NCBI GenBank assembly: GCA_000004985.1
Contig: GG738879.1
Source: Naegleria gruberi
Taxonomy: Eukaryota
Length of the DNA: 64,000 bases
Reading direction: 5' to 3' (one strand)
The translations under genes and the position numbers were made by a program. The notes beneath the pieces are model-generated. The model worked only from the letters and a program-made list of their open reading frames with translations, searched no databases and had not been told where the DNA came from. Positions 10,417 to 41,545 of the stretch are shown piece after piece (position 1 is the stretch's first letter; every line of letters begins with the position of its first letter).

Positions 10417-12939
10417 TTAATTTTCACCAATTGGAATGAATTGTGTCATGAGAGGTGGATGTTCTGAAATAAGATTGTCAATATAGACAATTGTGGAATT
10501 GATTGGTTTGTATCGACAATGAGTATGATTTTTAGGTGACATGGCAATGTAATCAAATGTTGTGAAGGATTTAGAAGAATTATTTCTAATAATTTCATGA
10601 CTAATAACTGGATGCATATATGTCTGATTGAAAAAGTTATTGGTCGATTTGAAATTAAGATCTCCAACAAGGAACATGGTTTCAAATTGTCTATTTGCAA
10701 TTTTGCTTTCCTTCCATTCGGCCGTGAGTAAACGGCTGGCATAGAGAGCTTGCTTATTTTGTTCTTGGTGATTTCTGACAGAGAAACTGCTTGTGAAAAA
10801 GTAGAAATTGGTCATGTTAGAAGACATTAATACCTCAGGATCATTCACTCTCACATAGGCCTTTACCATTACAGCTTGTTCACTTTGATCAGAGGGAAGA
10901 AGGTAGAAGCCTCTTTCTCCCAGTGGATATGAGGAAAGAATTGAATTACCAAAGGAACCCTCTCTTAAACTTGGCCCATAATATTCATGCATATTAAGGT
11001 AGAAGCTCAAATATTCCAATAAATCGTTATTAGATGCTGAAATTCTATTCGTATCGCTGTCTTGTAATCCAATAACACTTGCTTTCAAATCTTTTAAGGT
11101 TTGTAAAACACGGTCAAAGTTATTTCTTCCATAAATATCATAACCATTGTGAACATTAAAGGTAACAATGATGAGCTTGTCTCCGTATTGGTTTGTTGGA
11201 GTTTTAAGGTACATTAGTCTATATCCTAAACTTGGAAGCACTGAAAATACGCTAATGATAATAATCACAGCCAATACACGCTTATTAATATGAGCAAATG
11301 GAGATTCTTTTTTTTCAGATTCATCCTCTCTTATCAACCATTTAACAAAACCCTTAAAAGTATATCTATTTTCCTTGCTGGTTGGCTTTTCAACGAGTGG
11401 ATCTTCCTTTCTTCCAATAACAGGTCGTCTAATGAGATTTCCCAATCCTATTCCAAATGTAGAAATTATTACAGAGCTGAAAATTAAAAGGGTGTGTGCT
11501 CTCTTATTAATAATTGTTGAAATCCAAACAACACTTGGATCTATTATGCTTGAAGGGGAGGAAAACTCCAATAAAATAACTTGAAACATGTATGTTGCAA
11601 GAGCTATGAAAGCACAAATTGCAGTTGAAAGATTTGATGTAGGATAGGCATAACCAGTATTTTTTCGGATCAATACATAAACCCATGCAGTTGGTAGAAC
11701 TATAGAAGCAATAATTGAGCTTGTTAGAATGACAATAGAAAATGAGGAATCATCTGTAGGTAAATAGGATAAAATAAAGCAAAATGTTAGCAATGATATA
11801 GCTCCAATTATAGATCTGAAAATAAGTGATACACTAGAAATCACTAGTCCAATATTTAGTGCAATCAAAATGCTCAAATTATATGGAAATCCTGGTAGAC
11901 CACTCCACCGAACAAGAGTAGTTGAAGAACTGAAAAGCCAATGAGTTAAAAATAATAGACACCCAAAGGCCAATCCTCTAGTTATTGCTAAATAGTAAAT
12001 TTTAAGGAAAGAGAAATCAAGGTGGTTGACTTCTTTCAATTGCTCATTTTCATCAATTTCATATCTTTCCTGTTCCATAGTGTCTTTTGAATCCTCTTCT
12101 TCTTGGTAAAGAATCCATCTTCTCCAAAAGAATACAATTATTTCCTCTGTTAAAGATACAATGGCGAATATAATGCAAAATATTAATGAAACTGTTGATA
12201 TTTTCCAAGTTCTTTCACCAATGAAAAGAGGATTGAGTGAACAATAGCCAAATCTCAGATTTACAATCAACACCCAACCAATAATAAATGACCAAAGTCC
12301 TCTTTCACATTGTTTCTTATGTGCATCTCTCATACAAATCACTAAATGGCCAATTAGAAATACTAATGAAACTCCAAGACAAATTACTCTATTTTGTACT
12401 TGTGGTCCATCAAATAAAGGTAAATTAGTTATTAATCCAGCACAACTGCACAAATAAAAGAAAGGCCTTCTACATATATGCAATATGGTATCAAGTTTTT
12501 CTCCAATTGTTCGTTTTTTTTCTTGTAAATATTCGAAATTATATTCTACAAAGTTATTTTCTTCGAGAACAGGTGCTGTCTTATTTGTTAAAGGTAATAA
12601 AAGTGGTGTCGATGAGCTAGTTACAATCATGTGAGTTGTATCAGTGCTCACACTATGCATTCTCATTCTTCGTCCCCTTATAACAGTATCATCCTCTGCC
12701 TCCAAAACTCTCATTAATGATTCATTTCTTCCAAAAATATGTGAAGAAGGAGAAGGATGTTGATAATAATAATCCTGATAGGATCCAGTACCACCTACTG
12801 AAATAGGATTACTCGAAGGAATAGTCAGATATGAAGATGCTTTTTTGTGAGGTAATGAATTATTGATACTTGGAGGATCTTTTTGTTCATTTTGTTGAAT
12901 AGAAGTGTTAGAAGGTTGTTCAGTTTTTGATCTTTCCAA
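10417..12939 (-). CDS. CWH43/PGAP2IP-like multi-pass membrane protein with a C-terminal endonuclease-exonuclease-phosphatase (EEP) domain
   Basis: 840 aa: Ser-rich N-terminus, more than 12 predicted TM helices, then an EEP-like domain (IIVTFNVHNGYD...GLQD...FLVGDLNF). This architecture matches yeast Cwh43, a GPI-anchor lipid remodelling protein. Confidence 0.5.
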   Translation of the reverse strand: MERSKTEQPSNTSIQQNEQKDPPSINNSLPHKKASSYLTIPSSNPISVGGTGSYQDYYYQHPSPSSHIFGRNESLMRVLEAEDDTVIRGRRMRMHSVSTDTTHMIVTSSSTPLLLPLTNKTAPVLEENNFVEYNFEYLQEKKRTIGEKLDTILHICRRPFFYLCSCAGLITNLPLFDGPQVQNRVICLGVSLVFLIGHLVICMRDAHKKQCERGLWSFIIGWVLIVNLRFGYCSLNPLFIGERTWKISTVSLIFCIIFAIVSLTEEIIVFFWRRWILYQEEEDSKDTMEQERYEIDENEQLKEVNHLDFSFLKIYYLAITRGLAFGCLLFLTHWLFSSSTTLVRWSGLPGFPYNLSILIALNIGLVISSVSLIFRSIIGAISLLTFCFILSYLPTDDSSFSIVILTSSIIASIVLPTAWVYVLIRKNTGYAYPTSNLSTAICAFIALATYMFQVILLEFSSPSSIIDPSVVWISTIINKRAHTLLIFSSVIISTFGIGLGNLIRRPVIGRKEDPLVEKPTSKENRYTFKGFVKWLIREDESEKKESPFAHINKRVLAVIIIISVFSVLPSLGYRLMYLKTPTNQYGDKLIIVTFNVHNGYDIYGRNNFDRVLQTLKDLKASVIGLQDSDTNRISASNNDLLEYLSFYLNMHEYYGPSLREGSFGNSILSSYPLGERGFYLLPSDQSEQAVMVKAYVRVNDPEVLMSSNMTNFYFFTSSFSVRNHQEQNKQALYASRLLTAEWKESKIANRQFETMFLVGDLNFKSTNNFFNQTYMHPVISHEIIRNNSSKSFTTFDYIAMSPKNHTHCRYKPINSTIVYIDNLISEHPPLMTQFIPIGEN

Positions 12940-13548
12940 ATATGAAACGATCAGTGATTTTGCTTTTGAATAAATAGCTAATATTACAAGTATAATACAT
13001 GGAATAAAGAATGCAAAAATAAGTGGAATAATTGGTGGAAGACTGGCAAACTCAACTTTGACATAACCTTGAAAAATCAGAGAATAAAACTCTATTAAAA
13101 AACTCCAAGTTAAGAATCCTTTCAGAATATCATGTCAATATTGAATCAAATATTGAACTAAAACATACCAAAATAAATATCAGAGCTAAAGCCAAACCAA
13201 TATAAACAATTCATCAATATCCGATATTTTGTTTGCTCGCTTTCTTTCCTATTTGTGTAATAGGAAAAGTAATTATCATAAAATTCATCTTGATGATTAT
13301 CACGTGTCTTGTTATTATTATTTAAATTGTCAAGAGATGCCGATGACAAATTGTGCCTAGAGGGTGATTTAGTTTTCAACATTTTAACACTATTTAAATA
13401 ATAATAACATTTCAAATACAAGTTCGATGAACTGAAAAAAGCAGTTGATGTTTTGTTTCTATCCGATCTAACAATAAAAACAACACTGAACACTTATTGC
13501 AAAGCAAATTAGGTATTTTTTTTACTTTGTGGAACGTATCTAAAGATT

Positions 13549-15495
13549 TTATCGTTGTTGCTTCTTGTTTTGAGTTGTGGTTGTTGGCATCTTAATGGAT
13601 GTAAACTTGCCAGCAGCAGGAGCAACAGAAGGGGAAGAATTGCTTGTAGAAGAACTAATTATGTCTCTATAAGTTGGTTGTTGAGGAGTTAAAGGCTGTG
13701 AAGTGGCAGTAGTGGTTGTGGAAGCACTGTTTGAGGAAGAACTGTTATCTCTTGAAATAATCTTAAATTGTGAATCAGTCACTGGTGAATCAAGCTTACC
13801 GGAAGGAACATCTGAATTGTGGAATGAAACTTTCAAATGTTTCTTTCCTATTTTATAGCTGTTCATCTTTGAGACAGCTTCCATGGCAGAGTCAATATTA
13901 CAATATTTAACAAAGCCATATCCTTTGCTTAGGTTTGTCTTAGGATCTCTAATGACTTTGACTGATTCAATTTCACCAAATTTAGAGAAAAGTTCCATTA
14001 ATTTTGAATCATCAACATCACCAGGAAGATGGAAAATAAACAAATTAGCGGTTTCGCCTGACTTTGAATTCTTATCTTCTGGAGAGCTACTTTCATTCTT
14101 TGAACGTTTGGTGTGGGTTTGTTCTTGATTTTCATTCATAGAAGATTCATCATACATTGGTACATGGTAGTATGGGTTATAGGGTGTATAAGGATTGAAA
14201 TATGGATTATAGTATGGATTGAAATTATGCAAGAAAGGTCCTTGATTATTTTGATCATCGGATTCATTTGATTTTTCGTTTTCTAATTTATCTTTGGAGA
14301 ATCTATCGGTAGGATGTGATGATACTGGAACACCCATGTGATGAGGTACAAAGTAGGTCATGTGATATGGAACATCGGAATGATATGTCATATCTTGGGA
14401 TGTTTCATCTTGTTGATCATCACGTCTCATTGCCATTTGATTGAACATTGGATATGAATAAAGGGATGGATTCATACCATTTGGATTTGAGAAACCAGTA
14501 TGATGAGAATGGACATATGGATTTGGAACATGTGTTGGAGGTCTGATGATTTGTCTTGTTTTTAACTTTCTCTTTTGTTTTTCATGTTCTGTTTCAGCGA
14601 ATCTAACAACCAGAGGAAGAATATCCTTTGATGAATCATCATCTAATTTGGAACCATTCATTTTTTGAATAGCAGAGAGAGCATCTTTACGATTTTCAAA
14701 TTTACAAAAACCGTAACACTTGCTCCTTTGTGTGTTGATATCGATCATAATCTTCACTTTTGAAATTGGACCAAATACTTCAAAAGCTTGTTTAAGTGTC
14801 TCTTCATCATAGTGAGGTGGAATATTTCTGATGAAAAGATTAGATTGTTGATCTTTTTCCTTATTCCCTGCACTATTGGAAAGCTTACAGAGCAATCTCT
14901 TATTTCCAATAGATTTTTCATTAAGTCCTTGAATAGCATCTTGAGCTTCATTTTCATTTGAAAATCTAACAAATCCAAATCCTAATGATGAATTTTCTCT
15001 TGTTTTATCAGTCATAACGTGGCAACTGACAATCTCTCCAAAAGGTGTGAATAACTCTCTTAAATCTTCATCAGAGAAATGAGGTGGAAGATATTTAACA
15101 AAAACGTTGCAAAGATCTGAATTTTCTGAATCTAGATATTCTTCCTCATCAATGCTTTCCTCTTCTTCCTCTGAGATCCTCTTTGGAATTTCTTGTTGAA
15201 TTTTTTCCTTGGAAATAAGCCCAACAGGACGTGTTCCATTGGAAGTCACCAAGTTGTTTGTAGTAGCAGTAGTGGTAATCTTTGTTTGAGTCTCTTTTCT
15301 TTGACTACTACCAATTCCAACACCAAGATTGATCTTGATGGCATTATTGTTATGTGATTTGGCGTCTTTTTCTAATTGTAAGATTACTGGAGGTTTTTCT
15401 TTTTGAAGAAGTTCAATTGTGTTGGTTGTTTTGTTCTTCTTATCATTTTGTTCAGATCCTGTTGTTGATGACATGTTTTCAAAAGAAGACCACAT
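13549..15495 (-). CDS. CELF/Bruno-like RNA-binding protein with three RRMs
   Basis: RRM1 NVFVKYLP...GFGFVRF; RRM2 NLFIRNIP...YGFCKFE; C-terminal RRM3 NLFIFHLPGDVDDSKLMELFSKFGEIESVKVIRDPKTNLSKGYGFVKY...KIGKKHLKVSF, which is very close to CELF RRM3. A Y/P/N-rich linker separates them. Confidence 0.75.
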   Translation of the reverse strand: MWSSFENMSSTTGSEQNDKKNKTTNTIELLQKEKPPVILQLEKDAKSHNNNAIKINLGVGIGSSQRKETQTKITTTATTNNLVTSNGTRPVGLISKEKIQQEIPKRISEEEEESIDEEEYLDSENSDLCNVFVKYLPPHFSDEDLRELFTPFGEIVSCHVMTDKTRENSSLGFGFVRFSNENEAQDAIQGLNEKSIGNKRLLCKLSNSAGNKEKDQQSNLFIRNIPPHYDEETLKQAFEVFGPISKVKIMIDINTQRSKCYGFCKFENRKDALSAIQKMNGSKLDDDSSKDILPLVVRFAETEHEKQKRKLKTRQIIRPPTHVPNPYVHSHHTGFSNPNGMNPSLYSYPMFNQMAMRRDDQQDETSQDMTYHSDVPYHMTYFVPHHMGVPVSSHPTDRFSKDKLENEKSNESDDQNNQGPFLHNFNPYYNPYFNPYTPYNPYYHVPMYDESSMNENQEQTHTKRSKNESSSPEDKNSKSGETANLFIFHLPGDVDDSKLMELFSKFGEIESVKVIRDPKTNLSKGYGFVKYCNIDSAMEAVSKMNSYKIGKKHLKVSFHNSDVPSGKLDSPVTDSQFKIISRDNSSSSNSASTTTTATSQPLTPQQPTYRDIISSSTSNSSPSVAPAAGKFTSIKMPTTTTQNKKQQR

Positions 15496-16017
15496 TAATA
15501 AATAATAAATATATTATAGAAGAGTAATATAAAAATTTGATGATGATGATATAAAGACTTGTATAAACTGTTAAATATATAAAGCAAACAGATAAAGTAA
15601 AATCTGCTGCTATTCAATATATATTATTATAAAATTTAAACCTATTTCCTCTCCAAATTAACAATATATCTGATGCTAGATTATTGTTACTCTTGGTGTT
15701 GATGCAAAGGTGGTGGAGAGAATATTTTTTAGAGAAAGTTTTTTCCACCACCAACATCAAATTGAACAAGGAAGTTTGGACAGCAAAAAGCGAATGAATC
15801 TTTTTGGGCGTTTAGCATATCTTGAGTGCTATCTATTCAATCTGGGCAGTAATAATGGCTTTTGTATCAATGAGACAGAACCATTAATGCTCCTTATCAT
15901 TGTTTCAACAGTTATAATTTGAAAAATCTTTAAGAATATCTGATTGTTTGTTGTGGGGAGTGGATGATGATGTGTATAGGAATTATATTATTAATTAATA
16001 AAACTTTTAAAACAAAA

Positions 16018-17978
16018 ATGTCCGAATTGTACCATCCATCACCATCAGACCTCATGTTGGCACCATCAAGTTTGTTGGTGTTTGACTTTGATAGTACATT
16101 GGTTAGAGAGGAAAGTTTGGTCACCATGTTGGAGTATGCTTTGAGAGAAGAATACGGAAATGATGAAGAAAAAATTGAGAAAGCTATTGAACAAATCAAG
16201 GAAATTACAAACAAGGGAATTAAAGGAGAAATTACAATGGATACTTCTTATGCAAACAGAGTTGGTACAGTTAAACCAACAAGAAAACATTTGGAAAAAT
16301 ATTTACAAAGACCAATTGATCAAATTTTAACTCCAAAAATGGATATTGTGAGTAAGTGTAATTTGTGGAATTAATATTTATTGGAAAATTTAGTTCAAAA
16401 TGTTAGAGAGCATTATCCTTCTGTTCAAATTCATGTTATTTCTCAAGGACCAAAAGTAATAGTTGAACATTATTCTAAATTATTATTTGGAATTCCAAGT
16501 GAAAATATTCATGCTGTAAATGTAAATTTCCCAGAGGATGGAGTAGATGTTTCAACTCATGAATATATTTCTCCTCAAGATGAAATGTTAGTGAAAGGAA
16601 AAAGTGGAATTTTACAAAAAGTTATTGATGGAATTAATTCACAATATACCACAACAGGAACAAAGGTTGAAAATATCATTGTCGTTGGAGATGGTGTATC
16701 AGATATGAATATGAAACACAAAGGACCTGCAACAGTTGCCATAGGTTTTGGTGCTCACTTACTTTTCCAAAAAACTAAGGAATTGGCAGATTATTATGTA
16801 ACTGATTGTGATCAATTGAATCAATTATTAATTGAAAGACTTTTAAGAGATATGGTAAGCTATAACTTCTTCCCTGGTCCTGCAACAATTCCAACTGAAA
16901 TCATGTTAAAAGTCAAAGATAATCTTGTTTGCTTTGATAGAGGTATTTCTGTTTTTGAATATTCACACCGTTCTCCAAAATTTTTAAATGTTTTAAGCAA
17001 TGCAGAAAAGAAACTCAGAAAAATTGTAGATATACCAGACGATTATGCTGTTCTCTTCTTACAGTAAGTTTTCATTTTACATATTTTGAAATATTTTGAA
17101 AAAGAGGAGGAGCCTATACTCAATTCTCAGCAATACCAATGAATCTTTGTGAAAATACTGATAATTCTGCCATTTATTTGGTATCTGGTATTTGGTCAAA
17201 GAAGGCCTATCAAGAAGCAAAGGAATTTATGGGTGGAAATGTTCAACAATTGAGTTTAGAAGAAGCTGATACAATTACATCCAATGAATTCTATACTCGT
17301 TGCTCTTATGTTTATTATTGTGATAATGAAACAGTTCATGGTGTTGAGAAGCCGAATGACTTCCTTGACCAAGTCTCCAAAGATGGTAAAATATTAGTTT
17401 GTGATATGAGTTCAAACTTTTTATCTAGACCTGTCAATGTTAGAAAGTATGGTCTCATTTATGCATGTGCCCAAAAGAATTTTGGTATTGCTGGGCTCAC
17501 AATTGTAATTATTAGAAAGGATTTAATTAAGGAAAGGGAAAATTATGTTCCTTCAATGCTCGACTATCAAGCATTATATGAAGAAAAATCACTTCTCAAT
17601 ACACCTGTCACTGCAGCAATTTATGTTGCTGACTTGGTATTTGATTGGATTATTGAGATTGGCGGATTATCTGCTCTGAATGAATTGGCTATTAAGAGAT
17701 CAAATCTGCTCTATGACACTTTAGAAAAATCATCATTCTTTGAAGTTCCAATCAAGGAGGACATTCGTTCAAGAATGAATGTTGTTTTCAAGATTAAGAA
17801 GGAAAGTTTAGAAAAGACTTTTGTTAAGGAAGCTGAAAAGGTTGGATTGATTGGATTGCCAGGTCACAGAAGTGTTGGAGGATTCAGAGCTAGTCTTTAT
17901 AATGGTATGTCAATGAAAGGAGTTGAGAGACTTTGCAAATTTATTCAAGCATTTGAAAACAAGTTCAATACTCAATAA
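16018..17978 (+). CDS. Bifunctional phosphoserine phosphatase (HAD, SerB-like) - phosphoserine aminotransferase (SerC-like) fusion, three exons: join(16018..16351,16394..17063,17105..17978)
   Basis: Exon 1 carries the HAD motif DFDSTL. Exon 2 carries ...VQIHVISQGPKVIVEH...GDGVSD..., then continues with no stop into the PSAT N-terminus MVSYNFFPGPATIP. Exon 3 carries YYCDNETVHGVE and the PLP-lysine motif AQKNFGIAGLTIV. Introns of 42 and 41 nt restore frame. Total 1878 nt, 625 aa. Confidence 0.7.
16352..16393 (+). other. Spliceosomal intron (42 nt), PSP region
   Basis: GTAAGT...AATTAAT...TTTAG. Splicing gives LTPKMDIV|IQNVREH, which matches the human PSPH alignment. Confidence 0.7.
17064..17104 (+). 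other. Spliceosomal intron (41 nt), PSAT region
   Basis: CA|GTAAGT...AAAAAG|A. Splicing gives VLFLQ-GGAYTQFSAIPMNL, which matches PSAT FLQGGGxGQFSAVPLNL. Confidence 0.7.
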
Positions 17979-18827
17979 TAACACTCACTAATTAGTATAA
18001 TTTATTATCATTGTGTTTACAAAATACAAAATCTTTAAAGAAACGATTTTTACTCTTAATGAGTTTTACCAGAATTTCTTACTCCGCATCCCCTTTTAGC
18101 ACTATTTTATTCCTTTCCTCATTTTCATATTTAATTACATGACTCTTTTAATGAAGTTGTCAAACTACACTCGCATAATATTTTCAAATGCAATTCTTTG
18201 AATTCAAACAAAATGAACTTGTTATGTATGAATCTTTCTACATCTAACTTCTGTCTGACTCAAAAGTCAAGTGGGAGATCAATGTCTTAGATTCTAAATT
18301 TATTCATGGTGAATGGATAATGAATCTCTCAGAGAGTACGATGATGTTCGTTGCCTTTACTCGCTGTAAATCATCGTTGTACATTTTTCTGCAAGCTTAA
18401 TGTGCAATAAAATCATTTATTAACTGATTTAATATGCAGCATGAATGTTGTTGAGGAGAGAGAGAAGAAGAGTGATGTTATCCATATTTCTCTTCATCAA
18501 CAACAATAATGAATAATGGATAATGAATCATCTACGAGACAATCATCAATAATCCATCATCCAACTGATGTGATCAATAATAAGCCACACGCTCACACTC
18601 CTAACAACAACATCAAAATCTCTTTGGATAATTTTAATAATGGGTAGGATGATGTTCTTTTGTGATGGATGGTAAGCTAGTGGCTAGCTTGTTTCAACAA
18701 CACAGTGATCGTTACCCAGTGCATTTAATTGATGCTCAACTTCCAATTAATCCACTATTATTATCAACAAAAAAAACAACGACAACCTTGAGTTCAGTCC
18801 AACACAACCAAGCCAACTCAATTGTAC

Positions 18828-20679: not shown

Positions 20680-22422
20680 ATGGTAAGTTTTCTCTTGTAT
20701 TATGTGAGTCACTAATCAAGCCTTAAAAATTAGTCTGCTGTTGCACAACAATCAAAGACGCAATCCATCACACATGAAGAGTCTTTGACTCTAATGAGAA
20801 ATTTGATGAGAACTGCAATATCTTCTGTTTGCTATTTGAGAAATTTATTTCCTGAGGATTGTTTTCAAGACAAGTCTCTGAGTGGAATCCAAATCAAGTC
20901 TCTTCAGCCTTCAAATGAGGAGGCAAGAACACTTATCGATTGGTTAGAGAAGGGTGTGTTTGAAGCCTTGAAGAAGAAATATCTGAGAACTATAATCTTT
21001 GGAGTCTGTTCTGATCCAAGTAGAGAAATTGATTCAATGCTTGAGAGCTATGAATGTAAGTATTACACAAACTGGTTTGTTCAATTATCTGCTCTATCAG
21101 TCAAAGTAACCTATCCGGATAAGGAAGAAGGCCAGTTGAACATCTCAAGAGCAGCTGATTCGAACAAGACTAATAAGAAGATTGGAATTAAAGGAACTCA
21201 AACCAAACAAGAAATTACTCAATCAATGGTTATGATGCTTAGAACCCTCATCACTCTTGCTCAGACACTTCAACCAATTCCAGAAACTAGATATATTACC
21301 ATGAAACTACTCTACTATGAAGATGTTACTCCTAGAGATTATGAGCCATCTTTCTTTAGAGCTTTGAGAGAGGATGAATCCAGAAAATTCAATCAAGATT
21401 TTGTCAAACTGAAGATTGGGCAAGTTCAAACTCAATATCACTCGTTGAATATTCGTGTAAGAACCGCATCTGAATCATTTGAAGATGAAGATGGTAAATC
21501 AGTCACCTCAGAGATGTTATCCTCCTGCCCTATAGACAAGAATAATTCACATCCAACCTCCTCTCAATGGGCTGTCAATGTACCAGAGAATAAGCTCGAA
21601 ACAAAGAAGGAATATGATAGCGATTCGACTCAGCTTTCCCAACAGGATGACAACACTAAGCAATCAAGCAGTTGTGAAGAGAAATTATTCCTTGCAGATT
21701 TGGAAAAGATTGGTTGGTTCAATTTCCAACTCAAATCTGTCAGTAAACTATTATCCAACAAGTATCCATCTGTCACGGGCGAAATAGCTAAAGAATTGGT
21801 AATTGCCAAGAGAACCAAACTGGTCAAAGATATGGAAGATCATGAGAAGACCTATTACAAAGCACTTGCATATGTTTTAGAAGAGGATCATATTACAGCA
21901 AGTTCTCTATCCAGTGAATTAGATATCAGTTCCTACTCAGCAACCAAGTTAATCTCCCAAATGGAAAAGGAGGGTCTCCTTAAAGCTGCCTCAACAAAGA
22001 GAAAAGGGAAGAAGGTAATGCACAACAATAAGAGACTTGAAGAAGCAAAAGAGTTCATTGAATTTGAACAGTATTTGAAGCAACCTAAGACTGAATCCAC
22101 CTCCTCTCCATCCAAATCACCAGAAGCTAAAAAGAAGCAAGAATTTGATTATTCGGACTCTGATTCAGAAATTTCAAATCATGAAGAGAGTGATATCAAA
22201 CCAACTCCCAAAAAGGCTGTTCATTCCTCACCAACCGTCACTAGTCCACCAAAGCAACCTGAATCAGTTGATAAAAGAGGTGTAAAGAGAAAGACTATTT
22301 CTCAATTTGAAGTCAGTCACAGTCAAGATGAAATAACTGCCAATGATAGAGAGAATGAAGAAAATCCATCATCTTCTAAGGTGGATTTGGATTCAATCAA
22401 CTACAGTTACTCAATTTTGTGA
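20680..22422 (+). CDS. HORMA-domain protein (Hop1/HORMAD-like meiotic chromosome-axis protein), two exons: join(20680..20682,20734..22422)
   Basis: EESLTLMRNLMRTAISSVCYLRNLFPEDCF...ALKKKYLRTIIFGVCSDPSREIDSMLESYECKYY aligns with the HORMAD1 N-terminus (SLVLVKRLLAVSVSCITYLRGIFPE...ALQKKYLRMVVLAVYTNPED). The ATG is followed at once by a 51-nt GTAAGT...ACTAAT...TTAG intron; the second exon, which starts upstream of track ORF 20785, then continues in frame. Confidence 0.7.
20683..20733 (+). other. Spliceosomal intron (51 nt) directly after the start codon of the HORMA gene
   Basis: ATG|GTAAGT...AG. The downstream frame (SAVAQQSKTQSITHEESLTLMRN...) is open and extends the homology to HORMAD N-termini. 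Confidence 0.55.
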
Positions 22423-30742: not shown

Positions 30743-30824
30743 ATTGAATAAAACAATCACTCAATTTTAGATATTTCCTTAATATTATTGAATGAAAACA
30801 AAAAAAGGAAAGATTAAAAAGGTG

Positions 30825-30895
30825 TAGGAAGACAGGGAATCGAACCCTGATCTTAGGAACCACAATCCCATGTTCTACCACTGAACTATCTCCCT
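30825..30895 (-). tRNA. tRNA-His (anticodon GUG)
   Basis: The reverse complement AGGGAGATAGTTCAGTGGTAGAACATGGGATTGTGGTTCCTAAGATCAGGGTTCGATTCCCTGTCTTCCT-A folds as a cloverleaf: 7-bp acceptor, GTTC/GAAC D-stem, TGGGA/TCCTA anticodon stem, loop TTGTGGT (anticodon GTG), T-stem CAGGG/CCCTG with a TTCGATT loop. The discriminator is A73 and no G-1 is encoded. Confidence 0.85.
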
Positions 30896-31651: not shown

Positions 31652-34600
31652 ATGCAAAATGATGATAGAATTCATGATACCGAAGATGAAGGAAATAGAG
31701 ATATTATGGAGGAAGATAACATTCAAAGGTTTTTCAAATGGGCTAAGAATGTTGGTGTGGATGTTAGAAGAGGTTGTATAGCTATTGGAAATAGTGAATT
31801 GCCAATATCTTTGAGAATTGCTTTCAGAAGAGCATTGGCTACTGTTGGATTGGAAAAACCAAACTCTACATTGGACAAATACAAACTTAAAGCAGATATT
31901 AATTTTGAATATTTCAAAATTATGTTTATCGAGAATAATAACGTTCCACAGTACAATACTCCTCATTTCGAATTATCAAGAAAGAAAACTGAAGAAGAGT
32001 GAGTATTGAAATTAATTGTAATGTTTTTAACATAATTTAGTATCATTAAGGAGGTACAAAGACAATTTAAAGTTATCTTCAAAAATTCCAATTTTGATTT
32101 TATGAATGAGTTAAAAACAATGACAACTGAGAAGATTGATAAGGAACCTGAATATGTTTTTAATATGAAGGAAGCATCAGATAAAAAGTCAACAATAGTA
32201 GATCAAAAGAAAGTTTGCCTCTGTACAAAATTAAGAGTATGCTATTACTATGAAGAAGGAGGAGTCACTCCAGAGGATGAGAGTAGATCTCCCAATTTAA
32301 TGAGAAGTAACGATGATAACGTGCGAAGCAATTCTGAGCCATCACCAGTACATGGTGTCGAGTTGCATTTTGATAGATTTGTAGATGGTGCAGTTGTATA
32401 TGGACCTTGGGGAGACCACCAGAGAGCATTGCTTCAAGCTTTCTTCTTCCCTCCTCTCTATGAGAATGCAAAGTACTATAGAAAAACAGCAGGACGACAA
32501 AGAAAATCTGAAAAATTTGATGTTGAGTTCTATTTTAATGAAAAGACAACTTGGGTATTCCCTTTTATTGCAACACCAAAAACTTTAAGAGAAAAAAAAG
32601 AAAATAAGGGCGACGAACAAATTTTGACAATGATTTTTGACAAGAATTCCTTCCTTCACTGGAGTGGTGATATGTATGCTTCTTTAGCAACTAATGAAAC
32701 AATTACCAATATTGATTTCAATTTCCCAGGAATGAGTCTAATTACAAGCAATACGCAAGCCACCTTTGGTGAATCAGAGATAGGAAAAGGCCACTTCATT
32801 ATGAGAAACTCTGCTGAATGGAATGGCAGAAAGGACTGGACTTTCAATTTTGAAGCAAACAAGTCTACAGTTTATTACACGGCAGGTAAGTTATCAATAT
32901 ATTTTCTAATTCTAAAATCATTTATAGAACACATTGGATTCATTATGGATTTAATTAGGGATTGGAGAAATTATCCAAACCAAAAACAAGCAACTTTACT
33001 CGATTTTATTCCCTCTGTATATACATATAATTTTAAACTTTATAACTCAATGCTTAAGATGCATACTAACGACTTGAACATAGTGGAGTTTCCTAATGAC
33101 AGCTCCAAGAATCACTTTTTCTGTATTGATTACCCTCTAATGAGTATCAGTTTTACTGCTCCTGGAGAAGTTTTTTCCCCACCTTCTGTAGAATATTCAT
33201 TCAGTGTAGAGGTTAAGGGTGATGCACAAGTTGACCCTGGAGTACATATGGAATACCCAAAAGATCATCCTGTTCACGAAATGCAAATGGAACCAGGAAA
33301 AAAGTTTTTATGGGGCGAAAGAGCTCATGTACATGGAACCTATACAGTCCATGACAAAATCAATGTCGAAAATGTGGATTCCTGCATAATTAATGTTGAT
33401 TTATTCAATGTAAATTTAATGGTGAACGGATATCACCTCAATTATTTAATTACTATGTGGTTTGACCATTTCACTGCTGAAAGATTTTGGATGTCAGAAT
33501 CTGAATACATTGCAAATGGATATAAGAATGACAAGTCAAAGCAAATATCCAATTTACAATCCACTGATTTGTCGTCCATTCCTTATCCATCTAACCCAAC
33601 CGAATACTTTGTTACCATTAATATCAAACGAGGTATAGTACATTTGCCTCACTCTCTTTATTCGAGAGAAGAATGTACACAACTTATGGGTGAAGAATTT
33701 ACTATGGATATTAGATACGTACCTTCCAGTATTGATTTGTGTTTCAATCTTGGTCAACTTATGGCTGAAATACCAATTAACCCAGATGAAAAAGTAAGGC
33801 CTTCAAAGAAGTTTATTGGTTGTGAAGGAATCAAATTTTTAGCACAATTACCAATTGGACCAAATCCTGATGGGTTACTTTGGAGAAGAAAAATTCACTT
33901 TGATATTGGAGCAATAACTGGTGAAATCACTCCAAGTCAAATTGGTAATATTGTAAATATTGGTCTCAATTTTGTCTATCAGTGGAAATTGGCCTACTTC
34001 CCTAAACCTGACATTACTTTTAAAAAAAGTGATTATTCCAGAAGACAATATTCTTCTGAAGAGTTTGATGAATACTTGATTTGGGATGTTAGAGTAACCT
34101 TTGTTTCTATTTCTGCTGTCATTTCAATGACCAACGGTATGGTCAATATCGATTTAGACAAGGGAATTGATATTAATTTTGATTCACTCAATAATGGATC
34201 ATCCAATTCTAGGCTCAATGTATTGGTACCCTCCATACATGCCAGAATAATGAATGCAAGAGAAACAGGAATGAAAGTAGATGGTGATTGGGTTCAAATT
34301 GGAGAACTATTGTCTGGTCTTAAAGTTGGTATGGAAAAGAAAACTCACGACCTTAAAGAGCACTATTTCAGACAACAAAGGTTCATTCAAAATATGAACG
34401 GAGATTCGTTTGGATTGAATTTTAGTGCTGATAAACAAATGGAAACATCTCTTAACAAACGAGAGATGGAGACAAGTGCTTCAACAAGCAAGAAAAGGTC
34501 CAAAAAAAAGAATCCTTCAAAGAGATCTGTTGCTAAGACTACAACTGAAATTAGTGAAACAGATATTAGCGAAACAGACACAGATGCTGAATTTTTCGAT

Positions 34601-37600
34601 ATAGATGATGACGAATTGGAGCTGGAAGAGGAAGAAGAGAAGGTTCAAAAGGTCAGAAAAGTGTTTAATGGTCTAACTTTTCATGATACCGAACTGGGTA
34701 AAACAATTAGTGTAGACTATATTGATAGTATAATTTCAGAAGATGGAAGCCAATTTATAGAAAAGGATGTATTGGACGATAGAGCACAATGGAATCTTAT
34801 TTCGAAATCATCACCAAGTTTATCTACATATTCCAGTTATTTGAAAAATTATTACTATGAACAAGAAAGAGAAAGTCTTATGCCTTTAACATATAATGCT
34901 AAGCAATTTCTTACAGATAGATATCCTCACCATAGAATGGGAATGTACTCTCCTTTCCCTGAATATCACTTAAGAAGAAATAAGAATACTGAAGATTCAA
35001 ATGAGTTACTACCAATAGTATCAAAATTCAGCAAACTTGACATGAAAGATTTTAGAGGACAATTCTATTCATTTTCTTCTGGAAAGGACCGTGAGAATAT
35101 TGAGAGAATTTTGCAAATCGAAAGTAACTTTACCTCCCAAGAAAAAATTGATCAACAACATATCAACATTGAATTTTTAAAGAATATTGATATTAGCTTT
35201 TCACCAAATGTAATCTCTCTAGTACACCAATTAATCAAATATATAATACTTCCAGATTCAAACCTTCATGCTACAGCTGATCATATCGAAAAGTCAAAGA
35301 AAGTATTCCATCAGGATGTCCCAGAGGAATTATTAGAAGAGAAGAAAACTATTCCAAAATGGGATTTAAAGAAAATTATCTTTTCTGGTGGTGTTAAATG
35401 TGTTAATGTTAACGTTTTACAATCACTCTCTGTACCTAATATTATACCTGAGTCACCTTTACAAGGAACAGTTTCTGCATATTCTATCAAACTTTTTGCT
35501 ACTGATTTTGTAGCTTCTGGATCTGTAACTTTGAGAAAAGTGGAAGAGGAAAAGAAAGTAAGCTCTGAACTATTTTCTATTGAAGGTTTTGGAAAATGTC
35601 TAGAGGTTGGAGGTATTTCTCAGTGCTTAGATAGTAAAACATACCATTACAAAGGTATTGATCCTTCTGAGTTACCACTTTACTTCTTACAAAGGGTAAA
35701 TCTAATACCAGACGCACCAATAGTTGCAGCAATTCTTGTAGAGGACGTTCATTTCCAAGGTAAAAATAATATCAAGGAGGAAAACTCTCAGGGAAGATTT
35801 ACCTGTACAGTAGGAAAGCAAGGTTCTCTAGGATCAGGTGTTTCTGTACTCTTTACTCATGATATAATTGTAATTTCATATTCACTTGTAGAAGTGTGGA
35901 GAAAAGTTATCACAGATATGGTATTGAATGTTAGAAACTATTTGAGGTTACGACACGTCTATGATTTGCTACTACTTAGTCAAGTTTCAAAGAAAGCTGT
36001 ATCCAATACATCAGAAAACCTCTATGGAGTCTTGGAAAAAAAGCAAGCTTTGAAACATTTAAGAGCTTCTCTCTACTCTTTAACTTTTGCTGACTGTAGA
36101 AGTATTCAAAAGTTTATGCATTCTCATATAGGAATGGAAGTTGATTCAAAGGTAGAAATGAGAGCAATAAGAAATGAATACTCTGAATTGATAGAAGACG
36201 AAGACCATGCCCCTCAAATTCATACAAGCAAAACCTCTGTGAGATTGAGAACTGATATCTCTTTCCACTTGGAACGACTTGACCTTTCAGTTCATTCTGT
36301 TGATTTTAAAACAAAAGTTTACACAAAGAGTATTGCAAAGTTTAATGATATTTTAATGAGAGGAAAAGTAGAACATAGTTTGAATCCACTTTTCGAAACT
36401 GAGTACAAGAAATTTGAATCAGAAAATGCACAAAAGATAAGAGATATTTCTCTTATTTTATCAGTGAATTGTAGAGCCTTTAGTATTGATATTCACTCTC
36501 AAACTCTCATCCTTTTAACTTCAGCGCTTGGAGTATTCTTAATTGTTAAAAACAAACCTTTCATTAAAAAGTTGAGAGAAAAAGAAAAAAAGAACAAAAA
36601 CAAAAATCCTCAACAAAACCACGGAGAAATTAAGGAGATAACACACGATGTTTCTGCATCAACCCATGAACCAGAGGGTGAAAAAGAAATACCAGTGTAC
36701 CAAGAAAAAGTAGTCCTAAAACTGAATGTATTTACAAATGTTAATGTACAAAAAGCAACCGCTAGAGCATGGATGGACAAGAATAGTTTTGCAGAACTCA
36801 GTATTGATAAGTTTTCTCTACTCTTCAATCAACCTAAAAGCTCAGAAGAGCACATGCTAGCCATCAATAATGAGGAAAACAAGTCAGAGAAGAAGAGTAA
36901 TCTTAAAATGGTACATAGTAGTAATATTTCCATTAACAAAATTCTATTCCAGTTCAATTATACAACTCCTGAAAAAACAAACGAGAGAACAAAAGAGTTT
37001 ATTTCTCTCTTTGATGTTACTGTGAATGATATTAGACTTAATGAATTTTTATTCAAAGAAAAGGACTTGAATGTGCATGCCTATTTTGCATTTGATAAGC
37101 TTTTAATTAATCTTCCATTTGCTGATGTTTGGTCTGCATCTTCAGTACAATTTAGGCTGTTTGTGAAAACATGGTATGAAGCTATCAAAAGAAAGCCTAA
37201 TTTACCAAGCTTTGACATTTCAAAAGATTCTTCTCAACCAAAACAAGACCAAGAGCAACCCAAATCACCTATTAATTTCAATATTCCTGCAATTAATATT
37301 GTTCTTGATTTGAATGATATTTCTGCATACTTCAAGTTGGTAGATTCTTTCCAAATGAGATATAGTCTCACGAAACTAACAGCTCACTTCAAGCAAAATT
37401 CAAAACTTGACAATAACTTTATGGTACACTTGTTCCCGCATTCGTTTACTTTGAAATCAAAGAATGATGAAGAATTTCCAAACTCCAACAAGTGGGAAGG
37501 TCCAAGAAGCACAACACTTGGTTCGAATGAATTCAGAAAGATTTTCATTCTTCCTGAAGTTATTGTTTCTGGAAGTTTAGAAAATAAGGACAATAATGGT

Positions 37601-40600: not shown

Positions 40601-41545
40601 TACGTATTCTATAAGATCAAAGAGTTAGCCACTGAAAGAAAGAAAGCTGCATTAGATACTCTCCAAGGATCTGTTAATTTTTATAATACAGAGGATGCCT
40701 CTGAAAAAGAAACAGAAGAAGAAAAATCATTCGAAATCAAATCTCTAAAAATTCAATCTCCAACGAAACAATTTTTATCACTCATTCCAATTGGTGATAT
40801 AGTTTTTAAGGGTGTAAATCTCAAAGTTTACCTTTATGAAAAGTTTACAGTTGAAAAAGATCAATTCGTTCCAGCAGGAGATTGGTTAGAGTTTGGAATG
40901 GATGACTACCAACTAAAGTTCAAACGTAAAGGACTTATGGAGGATAAATCTGTAGAAAGGTCACTGACATTGTTTTTAGCCAAAGTAGCTCTGGATAGAA
41001 TGACTACTCCAAACAAGCGATCATTTATTTTGGAGGTCCCTGGAGCTCACTTAACAATGAACTCATTACAAACAAGATCTATTCCAGATGTAATTAATTA
41101 TACATTCAAAACCAAGTTCCCTAAGGCCATTACAGTCACCACCAATTTGAATGAATATACATTCTTACAAGGTTTGATGAAGCTCTACAAATCAGAAGTT
41201 ACAAACGAATTGGAGGAACATAAGAAATCTGTACAACAACAATCATCATCTGTAATTTCCCTCACTTCTCAAAAACAAACAACAACAGATACTCAAATAT
41301 CCATATTTGGAATTCCAAAGAGAAAATTCGAAGGTACAATTCAACTAAATCCTAAGCTAAATGTTTTAGGAGATTTAACTCCTCAAGTTCAAACAGTTTT
41401 GTCATGGCTTGGAATTTCTGAAAGTATTATACCAAGAGCAGCTCATGAAGGAGTATCTGACTCTCTTGAGTCAATATTTATCATTTGTTATAGAGCTTCT
41501 GAATTGATGGATAATTTATTTGTTGAATCAACTTATGAAAAATAA
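31652..41545 (+). CDS. Giant protein (about 3283 aa) of unknown function with an IQ calmodulin-binding motif, two exons: join(31652..31998,32041..41545)
   Basis: ORF 31556..32002 ends at GA|GTGAGT. A 42-nt intron (GTGAGT...AATTAAT...TTTAG) joins it in frame to ORF 32102..41545 with no intervening stop. The first ATG of the upstream exon is at 31652. IQ motif LVQRIYRGFRARQLVKKLR at about residue 2440. Mixed beta-rich repeats, K/E-rich linkers, and no TM helices or nucleotide-binding motifs that I could recognise. Confidence 0.55.
31999..32040 (+). other. Spliceosomal intron (42 nt) joining ORF 31556..32002 to the giant ORF
   Basis: GTGAGT donor, AATTAAT internal motif, TTTAG acceptor. The frame continues open for 60 nt into the track ORF start at 32102. 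Confidence 0.5.

What the first reader, a model, noticed from the sequence alone, without database searches (positions are those of the whole stretch)
16018..17978. Apparent in-frame fusion of phosphoserine phosphatase (SerB/PSPH) and phosphoserine aminotransferase (SerC/PSAT1) in one gene
The HAD phosphatase C-terminus (…YVTDCDQLNQLLIERLLRD) runs without a stop codon straight into the PSAT N-terminus (MVSYNFFPGPATIP…) inside track ORF 16381..17067. Two tiny introns complete a 625-aa reading frame that carries every catalytic motif of both enzymes: DxDST and GDGxxD for the phosphatase, and the PLP-lysine motif for the aminotransferase. These are the last two steps of the phosphorylated serine pathway. 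I am not aware of a described fusion of this pair.
Basis: partly seen in the sequence, partly recalled or inferred. Interest (0 to 1): 0.7.

Follow-up and report, generated by a model that had tools for sequence, protein, structure and literature searches.

The report
Fused serine-pathway enzyme gene in Naegleria
One Naegleria gruberi gene really does join the last two enzymes of serine synthesis (phosphoserine phosphatase and phosphoserine aminotransferase) into a single 625-residue protein; the fusion is conserved in related amoebae and sits in databases labelled only as the aminotransferase, and no paper I could search describes it.

Summary
Exons 16018-16351, 16394-17063 and 17105-17978 (+), with introns of 42 and 41 nt, give a 625-aa protein. 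Its HAD phosphatase half (aa 1-264) runs without a stop into a full-length PSAT half (aa 265-625) inside exon 2.

The protein is 100% identical to GenBank XP_002675213.1 / UniProt D2VL37 of Naegleria gruberi NEG-M, named only "phosphoserine aminotransferase". So the gene model is not new.

The fusion is genuine and old. It occurs in N. fowleri, N. lovaniensis, Willaertia magna, Acrasis kona and several uncultured relatives, and three of these encode it as one uninterrupted ORF. The junction Met is not conserved and the linker length varies, which argues against a conserved internal start.

All HAD catalytic motifs and the Glu and Arg that bind phosphoserine in human PSPH are invariant, as is the PSAT PLP-lysine.

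A profile search of 1.84 billion representative proteins found this architecture in only about five clusters.

The papers I could search describe PGDH-PSAT fusions, and an algal enzyme that joins a PSP-like domain to GPDH, but no PSP-PSAT fusion.

Verdict: a real, lineage-restricted bifunctional enzyme. Both activities and any substrate channelling are inferred, not shown. Interest is moderate.

The parts
16018..16351 (+). Exon 1: start codon and aa 1-111 of the HAD phosphatase half. Includes motif I DFDST (16084-16098), Glu32 (16111-16113) and Arg81 (16258-16260).
   Evidence: Invariance of these residues.
16352..16393 (+). Intron 1, 42 nt, GTAAGT...TTTAG. Its length is a multiple of three and it carries an in-frame stop.
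   Evidence: N. lovaniensis has the same exon break at aa 111.
16394..17063 (+). Exon 2: the rest of the HAD half (Ser128, Lys181, GDGVSD 16687-16704), the domain junction, and the first ~70 aa of PSAT (NFFPGPA, SHR).
   Evidence: Stop-free ORF 16381-17067.
16849..16854 (+). Domain junction: Asp264 (last HAD residue) followed by Met265 (first PSAT residue), with no linker.
   Evidence: The Met is not conserved in relatives (C/F/N/K/Q/R/S) and the linker is 0 to ~12 aa longer elsewhere.
17064..17104 (+). Intron 2, 41 nt, GTAAGT...AAAAG. It splits the Gln335 codon in the motif FLQ/GG.
   Evidence: N. lovaniensis and Willaertia have the same break at aa 334/335.
17105..17978 (+). Exon 3: the remainder of PSAT, including Trp365, Thr411, Asp435, Gln458-Lys459 (PLP lysine, 17475-17477), the NTP and GHRSVGGFRAS motifs, and the stop TAA at 17976-17978.
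16018..16851 (+). HAD-IB phosphoserine-phosphatase-like domain (aa 1-264; includes intron 1).
   Evidence: Pfam HAD family, weak. Best NCBIfam match is serB TIGR00338, 1.8e-14, below cut-off. Human PSPH 1.5e-15 and Francisella 3kd3 1.8e-15. A model of the relative P0129 (HAD half only) has top Foldseek hits 3kd3 and human PSPH.
16852..17975 (+). Phosphoserine aminotransferase domain (aa 265-625; includes intron 2).
   Evidence: NCBIfam PRK05355, 430.6 bits against cut-off 253. Arabidopsis PSAT1 6czx 5.7e-94, aligned from residue 4 to 357. Foldseek TM-score normalised to target length ~0.87 against solved PSATs, using the N. lovaniensis model.

Best explanation
This is a single nuclear gene of Naegleria gruberi (the annotated model XP_002675213.1). 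It encodes one polypeptide of roughly 70 kDa (estimated from 625 residues). An N-terminal Mg-dependent HAD-IB phosphatase of the phosphoserine-phosphatase type is joined, with essentially no linker, to the natural N-terminus of a complete PLP-dependent phosphoserine aminotransferase.

Proposed mechanism, inferred from the known chemistry of the two families:
- The C-terminal half converts 3-phosphohydroxypyruvate plus glutamate to O-phospho-L-serine plus 2-oxoglutarate. Lys459 carries the PLP.
- The N-terminal half then hydrolyses phosphoserine to serine plus phosphate. Asp23 is the nucleophile and Asp25 the acid/base. Ser128 and Lys181 bind the phosphate. Asp211 and Asp215 bind Mg. Glu32 and Arg81 hold the amino and carboxylate groups of the substrate.
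- Solved PSATs are homodimers (from memory, not tested here), so the expected assembly is a PSAT-centred dimer carrying two phosphatase domains.

The fusion enforces 1:1 expression. It places the irreversible last step next to the enzyme that makes its substrate. This should pull the pathway forward and may channel phosphoserine.

The fusion arose once, in an ancestor of the Naegleria, Willaertia and Acrasis lineage (Heterolobosea, Tetramitia), and has been kept since.

Shown here: gene structure, domain identities, conservation of catalytic residues, conservation of the fusion. Inferred: both activities, the dimer, and any channelling.
For: Gene structure and identity
- Spliced model of 625 aa, 100% identical to the public N. 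gruberi model.

PSAT half
- NCBIfam PRK05355 430.6 bits against a cut-off of 253.
- End-to-end alignment to solved PSATs, with AQK(N) and GHRSVGG.RAS conserved.

HAD half
- The best NCBIfam match is serB.
- The best PDB sequence hits are human PSPH and the Francisella PSP-like protein.
- In that alignment D23/D25/E32/R81/S128/D211/D215 match human D20/D22/E29/R65/S109/D179/D183.
- These residues, plus K181, are invariant in 10 fusion HAD halves. They are invariant or nearly so when bacterial stand-alone relatives are added.
- The fold of a relative's HAD half is closest to 3kd3, human PSPH, SerB2 and M. jannaschii PSP.

The fusion is real
- A stop-free ORF runs from the GDG motif through NFxxGP in all 7 loci.
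- Complete uninterrupted ORFs exist in L003/L004, L005 and L006.
- Naegleria and Willaertia share intron positions and the gene order PGAP2IP-RRM-fusion. Naegleria species also share HORMA downstream.
- Further ORF fragments from metagenomes read through the junction.

No conserved internal start
- Met265 is replaced in every relative and the linker length varies.

Association with the serine pathway
- The same HAD-IB subfamily is fused to PGDH in Brevundimonas-like bacteria.
- A PGDH gene lies 3 kb from the fusion in L003.

Single origin
- The PSAT halves of 10 fusions form one split in a neighbour-joining tree, 69/100 bootstraps.
- The HAD halves have no stand-alone relative above ~30% identity.
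Against: - No transcript, protein or enzyme data were available. Every fusion seen is a genomic ORF or gene model.
- The HAD half scores well below the SerB equivalog cut-off (53.9 against 144.15 bits), and motif II reads SQG rather than the usual SGG.
- PSP-like HAD domains can change substrate. The algal bidomain GPDH (PDB 6iuy, hit; PMC7468427) contains a phosphoserine-phosphatase domain joined to glycerol-3-phosphate dehydrogenase. I recall, without checking, that this domain acts on glycerol-3-phosphate.
- The relative orientation of the two domains in the AlphaFold model is uncertain (pTM 0.59), so nothing supports a defined channel.
- I could not check whether Naegleria also has stand-alone PSP or PSAT genes.
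- Bootstrap support for a single origin of the PSAT halves is only moderate (69%).
Confidence: 0.82

Rival explanations
1. One gene, two proteins. The transcript spans both halves, but a separate PSAT is made by internal initiation at Met265 (or from an internal promoter), or the polyprotein is cleaved at the junction. The enzymes would then act as separate polypeptides.
For: In N. gruberi a Met sits exactly where stand-alone PSATs begin: NFxxGPA is at residues 4-6 of solved PSATs, and Met265 lies 4 residues before it. Nothing in the data excludes proteolysis.
Against: - Met265 is not conserved. It is Cys in N. lovaniensis, Phe in Willaertia, and Asn/Gln/Lys/Arg/Ser elsewhere (DNA).
- The next shared Met would remove the invariant NFxPGP N-terminus.
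- Linkers are short, variable and without a recognisable cleavage motif.
- The HAD C-terminal helix is modelled as running straight into PSAT.
Confidence: 0.07
2. The fusion is real, but the HAD half is not a phosphoserine phosphatase. It would hydrolyse another phosphoester or act as a regulatory or scaffolding module. The protein would then be a PSAT with an accessory domain, not an enzyme covering two pathway steps.
For: - Below the SerB equivalog cut-off.
- The closest solved relative, 3kd3, is only 'PSP-like' and, as far as I know, uncharacterised.
- The algal PSP-like domain fused to GPDH shows that such domains can be joined to other enzymes (PMC7468427).
- Motif II is SQG, not SGG.
Against: - All four HAD catalytic motifs are invariant, so the domain is very probably an active phosphatase.
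- Glu32 and Arg81 are invariant. They align with human PSPH Glu29 and Arg65, which I recall as the residues that bind the amino and carboxylate groups of phosphoserine.
- The domain is fused to the enzyme whose product is phosphoserine, and relatives are fused to PGDH.
- In the algal precedent I recall the phosphatase acting on the product of its fusion partner. Applied here, the same logic predicts phosphoserine.
Confidence: 0.1
3. Artefact. Two adjacent genes were merged by an assembly error, a lost stop codon in this strain, or an over-extended gene model.
For: None beyond the general frequency of merged gene models in protist annotations.
Against: - The same in-frame junction occurs in independent assemblies of N. 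gruberi, N. lovaniensis, N. fowleri, Willaertia and Acrasis, and in metagenomic and Logan contigs.
- Three are complete single ORFs found by intron-blind gene callers.
- A 97%-identical environmental variant of exon 2 also reads through.
Confidence: 0.01

Closest known systems
Stand-alone phosphoserine aminotransferase (SerC_1 type; E. coli SerC, human PSAT1, Arabidopsis PSAT1)
   Same: The C-terminal 361 aa align end to end (44-48% identity to plant and bacterial PSATs). The PLP lysine, SHR, W, D, NTP and GHR..R motifs are present. The predicted fold matches, with target-normalised TM-score ~0.87.
   Different: The N-terminus is not free. It is covalently preceded by a 264-aa phosphatase domain. 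No solved structure covers both domains.
Phosphoserine phosphatase of the HAD-IB subfamily (human PSPH, M. jannaschii PSP, SerB; nearest: Francisella 'PSP-like' 3kd3)
   Same: Motifs I-IV, a helical cap domain, and residues aligning with the phosphoserine-binding Glu and Arg of human PSPH.
   Different: Only ~25-30% identity. Below the TIGR00338 cut-off. Motif II is SQGP rather than SGG. There is an insertion between motifs II and III. It is never seen as a stand-alone protein within this clade, except possibly P0129.
PGDH-PSAT fusion proteins of oomycetes, brown algae and Thecamonas (PMC5715807, PMC2705460)
   Same: Two consecutive enzymes of the phosphorylated serine pathway are fused in one polypeptide in a protist lineage, with PSAT as the C-terminal partner.
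   Different: The partner there is step 1 (PGDH), not step 3 (PSP). The stramenopile fusions use the SerC_2 type of PSAT and are mitochondrial. Here PSAT is SerC_1. Most relatives start directly at HAD motif I, which leaves little room for a targeting peptide; targeting was not tested.
Algal bidomain glycerol enzyme: PSP-like domain fused to GPDH (Dunaliella DsGPDH, PDB 6iuy; PMC7468427)
   Same: The same architectural logic. An N-terminal PSP-like HAD domain is fused to a C-terminal enzyme that produces a phosphoester. The HAD fold is related (rank 10, E = 0.002).
   Different: The C-terminal partner and presumably the phosphatase substrate differ (glycerol-3-phosphate there, from memory). 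It occurs in a different lineage, the green algae.
Bacterial HAD-IB-PGDH fusions (Brevundimonas-like; P0151-P0154)
   Same: The HAD half belongs to the same subfamily as the Naegleria HAD half, as recovered with the profile of fusion HAD halves. It is likewise fused to a serine-pathway enzyme.
   Different: The partner is PGDH rather than PSAT. These are bacterial, with ~22-26% identity.
The proposed human 'serinosome', a non-covalent PHGDH-PSAT-PSP assembly (PMC11139964, PMC12318971)
   Same: It brings PSAT and PSP together physically in order to drive serine synthesis.
   Different: It is proposed to be reversible and non-covalent. Here the link is covalent and 1:1, and it does not include PGDH.

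Membership tests
Phosphoserine aminotransferase (SerC_1, class-V aminotransferase fold) | Scores above the curated family threshold | tested here: met
   NCBIfam PRK05355 430.6 bits against cut-off 253. Pfam Aminotran_5 134 bits against 21.5. TIGR01364 scores 429.1 bits, just under its stricter cut-off of 443.6.
Phosphoserine aminotransferase (SerC_1, class-V aminotransferase fold) | PLP-binding lysine and the other active-site residues (SHR, Trp, Asp, Gln-Lys, Asn-Thr, His-Arg...Arg) | tested here: met
   K459 lies in AQKN and aligns with the same motif in Arabidopsis and human PSAT. The residues are invariant across the fusion proteins.
Phosphoserine aminotransferase (SerC_1, class-V aminotransferase fold) | Full-length PSAT fold | tested here: met
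   The AlphaFold model of the N. lovaniensis orthologue (72% identical) matches about 365 alignment columns of solved PSATs, with target-normalised TM-score 0.82-0.87.
Phosphoserine aminotransferase (SerC_1, class-V aminotransferase fold) | Catalyses 3-phosphohydroxypyruvate + Glu <-> phosphoserine + 2-oxoglutarate | not testable with these tools
   Requires an enzyme assay or complementation of a serC mutant.
Phosphoserine phosphatase (HAD superfamily, subfamily IB; SerB/PSPH) | HAD motifs I (DxDxT), II (S/T), III (K) and IV (GDxxxD) | tested here: met
   D23-F-D25-S-T27, S128, K181 and G210-D-G-V-S-D215 are all invariant in the fusion HAD halves. They are invariant or nearly so when bacterial relatives are added.
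Phosphoserine phosphatase (HAD superfamily, subfamily IB; SerB/PSPH) | Substrate-binding Glu after motif I and Arg in the cap (human E29 and R65; M. jannaschii E20 and R56, residue roles recalled from the published structures) | tested here: met
   E32 and R81 align with human E29 and R65 in the phmmer alignment. Both are invariant.
Phosphoserine phosphatase (HAD superfamily, subfamily IB; SerB/PSPH) | Scores above the curated SerB equivalog threshold | tested here: not met
   TIGR00338 scores 53.9 bits against a cut-off of 144.15. It is the best-scoring HAD model but far below threshold. The domain should be filed as a PSP-like HAD-IB domain, not as a SerB equivalog.
Phosphoserine phosphatase (HAD superfamily, subfamily IB; SerB/PSPH) | PSP-type fold (Rossmannoid core plus helical cap) | tested here: met
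   Model of the HAD-only relative P0129 (pLDDT 91). Top Foldseek hits are 3kd3, human PSPH, M. avium SerB2 and M. jannaschii PSP. This was tested on a 36%-identical relative, not on the window protein itself.
Phosphoserine phosphatase (HAD superfamily, subfamily IB; SerB/PSPH) | Hydrolyses O-phospho-L-serine | not testable with these tools
   Requires an assay or complementation of a serB mutant.
PGDH-PSAT fusion proteins (oomycete / brown alga / Thecamonas type) | N-terminal 2-hydroxyacid dehydrogenase (PGDH) domain fused to PSAT | tested here: not met
   The window protein has no 2-Hacid_dh domain. This is a different fusion. A true PGDH-PSAT (P0221) was seen for comparison.
Conserved heterolobosean PSP-PSAT fusion (the group defined here) | HAD-IB half and PSAT half in one reading frame, junction a few residues before NFxxGP | tested here: met
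   Window and seven related loci. The exhaustive profile search found about five representative clusters with both halves.
Conserved heterolobosean PSP-PSAT fusion (the group defined here) | A single mRNA and a single polypeptide in vivo | not testable with these tools
   No transcript or proteome data could be reached. All supporting contigs are genomic.

The most novel reading that the evidence does not exclude
The PSP-PSAT protein is the only source of both activities in Naegleria and its relatives. It would work as a covalent two-step module that channels phosphoserine from the PLP site to the HAD site within a PSAT-centred dimer. This would be a natural, hard-wired version of the 'serinosome' proposed for human cells. 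It would also be a shared derived character of tetramitian Heterolobosea, and a structurally distinct target in the pathogen N. fowleri.
Probability: 0.25. Interest if true: 0.55.

Novelty: new variant of a known kind. Interest (0 to 1): 0.4.

Why it matters
Fusions of consecutive pathway enzymes are classic evidence that the partners work together.

- A natural PSP-PSAT fusion gives independent evolutionary support for close functional coupling of these two enzymes. This is the idea behind the human 'serinosome'.
- It offers a tractable single-chain system for testing whether phosphoserine is channelled.
- It corrects an incomplete annotation. These proteins are named only as aminotransferases, so pathway reconstructions for Naegleria, including N. 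fowleri, may score phosphoserine phosphatase as missing.
- It provides a candidate rare genomic change for heterolobosean phylogeny.
- It also links the poorly characterised Francisella-type 'PSP-like' HAD-IB subfamily to serine synthesis, through two independent fusions (with PSAT here and with PGDH in bacteria).

It is not a new enzyme chemistry, and the gene model itself has been public for years.

Tried and rejected
- The first splice model, with the GTGAGT donor at 16348, gave a frameshift. It was replaced by GTAAGT at 16352.
I used an alignment of database fusions instead.
- The AlphaFold-database Foldseek library was unavailable, so I could not list fused architectures by organism from AFDB.
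- The word-indexed homologue search with the HAD half alone returned only ORF fragments. A profile of ten HAD halves was needed to reach bacterial relatives.
- Literature searches for a described PSP-PSAT or SerB-SerC fusion found nothing relevant. 'serC-serB' in PMC7260847 is an expression cassette, not a fusion. The Roseburia paper concerns missing serB. GapMind 2026 describes other SerB replacements.
- An intron at the donor-like GTAAGC (16855) just after the junction Met was considered and rejected. It would delete the invariant NFxPGP segment, which is conserved coding sequence in all relatives.
- The full-length AlphaFold model gave no reliable inter-domain geometry (pTM 0.59), so I make no structural claim about a channel.
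Full report
**1. What is in the sequence**

The region 15500-18500 was read directly and its ORFs listed. An ATG at 16018 opens a frame that is interrupted twice.

- My first guess for intron 1 (donor at 16348) broke the frame.
- The canonical GTAAGT donor at 16352, with the acceptor TTTAG ending at 16393, gives a 42-nt intron.
- A second GTAAGT...AAAAG intron spans 17064-17104 (41 nt).
- The three exons (16018-16351, 16394-17063, 17105-17978) join into 1878 nt, giving 625 aa and a TAA stop.
- The boundary ...DQLNQLLIERLLRD|MVSYNFFPGPATIP... lies in the middle of exon 2, inside the stop-free ORF 16381-17067. The Met codon is at 16852-16854.

**2. Identity of the locus**

The spliced protein is 625/625 identical to XP_002675213.1 / EFC42469.1 / UniProt D2VL37, 'phosphoserine aminotransferase [Naegleria gruberi strain NEG-M]'.

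The window is therefore N. gruberi nuclear DNA (33% G+C). The fused model has been public since that genome was annotated, under a name that mentions only one of its two halves.

**3. The two halves**

*C-terminal half (aa 265-625).*
- It is an unambiguous SerC_1-type PSAT: NCBIfam PRK05355 430.6 bits (cut-off 253) and Pfam Aminotran_5.
- It scores E = 5.7e-94 against Arabidopsis PSAT1. The alignment runs from residue 4 to residue 357 of the half and includes SHR, AQK(N) with the PLP lysine K459, NTP and GHRSVGGFRAS.
- In stand-alone PSATs the NFxxGPA motif sits at residues 4-6. The phosphatase is therefore attached to the natural N-terminus with about three residues to spare.

*N-terminal half (aa 1-264).*
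- It is a divergent HAD-IB phosphatase. Pfam HAD models match only weakly.
- The best NCBIfam model is serB (TIGR00338, 1.8e-14), but at 53.9 bits it is far below the 144.15-bit cut-off.
- The best solved relatives by sequence are human PSPH (1.5e-15) and the Francisella 'phosphoserine phosphohydrolase-like' protein 3kd3 (1.8e-15).
- In the alignment to human PSPH, D23, D25, E32, R81, S128, D211 and D215 fall on D20, D22, E29, R65, S109, D179 and D183.
- From the published PSP structures (my knowledge, not a tool result), these are the nucleophile, the acid/base, the residues that hold the amino and carboxylate groups of phosphoserine, the phosphate-binding serine, and the Mg ligands.
- K181, in GKSGIL, fits motif III by pattern.

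**4. Is the fusion real?**

A homologue search returned full-length two-domain proteins:
- N. lovaniensis (628 aa, 72% identity)
- Willaertia magna (624 aa, 58%)
- Acrasis kona (613 aa, 46%)
- four unnamed environmental or Logan proteins (612, 646, 482 and 606 aa)
- N. fowleri (631 aa), in the N. lovaniensis cluster

I fetched the DNA for six of these.
- At every locus a stop-free ORF runs from the GDG motif of the phosphatase through NFxxGP of PSAT.
- In L003/L004, L005 and L006 the entire fusion is one uninterrupted ORF of 646, 612 and 606 codons, found by intron-blind gene callers.
- N. lovaniensis and Willaertia share both intron positions with the window.
- They also share the upstream gene order PGAP2IP, RRM protein, fusion. 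N. lovaniensis additionally shares an unknown gene and HORMA downstream. These are orthologous loci.
- Further ORF fragments from metagenomes also read through the junction, including a 97%-identical variant of exon 2.

An assembly or annotation artefact is excluded.

**5. Internal start?**

In the alignment of eight fusions, Met265 is replaced by Cys, Phe, Asn, Lys, Gln, Arg or Ser. The linker is 0 to about 12 residues longer in other lineages. The N. lovaniensis DNA reads ...AGA GAT TGT GTA ACA TTT AAT....

There is therefore no conserved initiation codon for a separate PSAT. The next shared Met would delete the invariant N-terminal motif.

A donor-like GTAAGC right after the Met codon cannot be an intron, for the same reason.

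**6. Conservation of catalytic residues**

The following are invariant across the fusions:
- FDFDSTL, E32, R81, SQGP (S128), GK (K181) and GDGVSDM
- in PSAT, SHR, W365, NET (T411), CDMSSN (D435) and AQKN (K459)

When twenty sequences including bacterial stand-alone relatives are aligned, the two Asp, Ser-Thr, Glu, Arg and Lys residues and GD..D remain invariant.

Both halves therefore look catalytically competent and under purifying selection.

**7. Relatives of the phosphatase half**

A profile of ten HAD halves found no close stand-alone homologue.
- The nearest are ~215-230-aa HAD-IB proteins of Francisella and Pseudofrancisella, named phosphoserine phosphatase by UniRef, at 27-29% identity.
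- It also found HAD-IB proteins fused to a 2-hydroxyacid dehydrogenase in Brevundimonas-like bacteria. One of these scores as serB plus phosphoglycerate dehydrogenase.

So the same phosphatase subfamily has been fused independently to two different serine-pathway enzymes. That is guilt-by-association evidence for a role in serine synthesis.

An AlphaFold model of the HAD-only relative P0129 (pLDDT 91) is closest to 3kd3, human PSPH, M. avium SerB2 and M. jannaschii PSP.

It also hits the PSP-like domain of the Dunaliella bidomain GPDH (6iuy).
- That enzyme is a useful architectural precedent: a phosphatase fused in front of the enzyme that makes its substrate (PMC7468427).
- It is also a caution that PSP-like domains can sit in other enzymatic contexts.

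**8. How rare is it?**

A profile of six full-length fusions was run with HMMER over 1.84 billion representative proteins.
- Only P0005, P0003, P0002, P0006 and P0177 matched across both halves (674 bits or more). The fragment P0125 also crosses the junction.
- The next hit drops to 439 bits and is PSAT only.
- Other long hits carry different additions: P0221 is a PGDH-PSAT fusion, and the others have unrelated extensions.

All named carriers belong to Heterolobosea, Tetramitia.

In a neighbour-joining tree with 55 sampled PSATs, the PSAT halves of ten fusions form one group in 69 of 100 bootstraps. Taken with the distinct HAD clade and the identical junction position, this favours a single origin.

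**9. Structure**

The AlphaFold model of the N. lovaniensis orthologue has mean pLDDT 82 but pTM 0.59.
- The last HAD helix (residues 252-267) is modelled as running straight into the first PSAT strand.
- The domain orientation is not reliable.
- Foldseek against the PDB finds only PSAT chains covering about 365 columns, so no two-domain structure has been solved.

**10. Mechanism**

The best-supported reading is a bifunctional enzyme for steps 2 and 3 of the phosphorylated serine pathway.
- PSAT makes phosphoserine and the attached HAD domain hydrolyses it.
- PSATs are dimers (general knowledge, not tested here), so a PSAT-centred dimer with two phosphatase domains is expected.
- The fusion guarantees equal amounts of the two activities and places the irreversible step beside its substrate source.
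- Channelling is possible but unsupported.
- Most relatives start directly at motif I (MSLVFDFD...). This leaves little room for a targeting peptide, but localisation was not tested.

**11. Known or new?**

The searchable open-access literature describes:
- PGDH-PSAT fusions in oomycetes, brown algae and Thecamonas (PMC5715807, PMC2705460)
- the algal enzyme that joins a PSP-like domain to GPDH (PMC7468427)
- a proposed non-covalent human serinosome

Searches for Naegleria plus phosphoserine or serine biosynthesis, for the protein accessions, and for fusion names such as SerB-SerC and PSP-PSAT found no description of this architecture.

Subscription papers on Naegleria metabolism could not be searched, so an earlier mention cannot be excluded.

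I rate it a new variant of a known kind (fused serine-pathway enzymes). It is real, lineage-restricted, under-annotated and of moderate interest.

Noticed in passing
L003:5005-6416 (Logan SRR32315873 contig); fusion ORF at L003:102-2042: In this uncultured relative a phosphoglycerate dehydrogenase gene lies about 3 kb downstream of the intronless PSP-PSAT ORF. The gene scores 438 bits on PRK11790, above the cut-off of 404, and is split by a probable intron. All three serine-pathway activities are therefore encoded within about 6.5 kb.
   Followed up: partly
P0151-P0154 (Brevundimonas-like bacteria, soil metagenome): HAD-IB phosphatases of the same subfamily as the Naegleria HAD half are fused to phosphoglycerate dehydrogenase. 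This is an apparent SerB-SerA fusion in bacteria.
   Followed up: partly
P0221 (701 aa, representative library): A PGDH-PSAT fusion whose PSAT half matched the profile built from these SerC_1-type fusion proteins strongly (388 bits). The published stramenopile fusions are reported to be SerC_2-type. Its organism is unknown.
   Followed up: no
window 10417-15495 (-) and 20785-22422 (+): The gene order PGAP2IP-like, three-RRM protein, PSP-PSAT is conserved between the window, N. lovaniensis (L001) and Willaertia magna (L007). An unknown gene and a HORMA protein follow downstream in the window and in N. lovaniensis.
   Followed up: yes
window 32102-41545 (+): A 3147-aa uninterrupted ORF with no Pfam match at E <= 1e-4.
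   Followed up: no
window 30824-30895 (-): A tRNA-His (GTG) gene, the only tRNA found in the window.
   Followed up: no
window 16855-16860: A donor-like GTAAGC follows the junction Met codon directly. It lies in conserved coding sequence, so it is very unlikely to be used as a splice site.
   Followed up: yes
P0129 (251 aa, Logan contig of 1590 nt): This member of the fusion HAD clade has an ORF that stops right after the phosphatase domain. It may be followed by an intron, or it may be a stand-alone version. The contig was not examined.
   Followed up: no
window 20785-22422 (+): The HORMA-domain protein also gives a weak match to the FtsK gamma domain, below the cut-off (26 bits against 30.6).
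   Followed up: no
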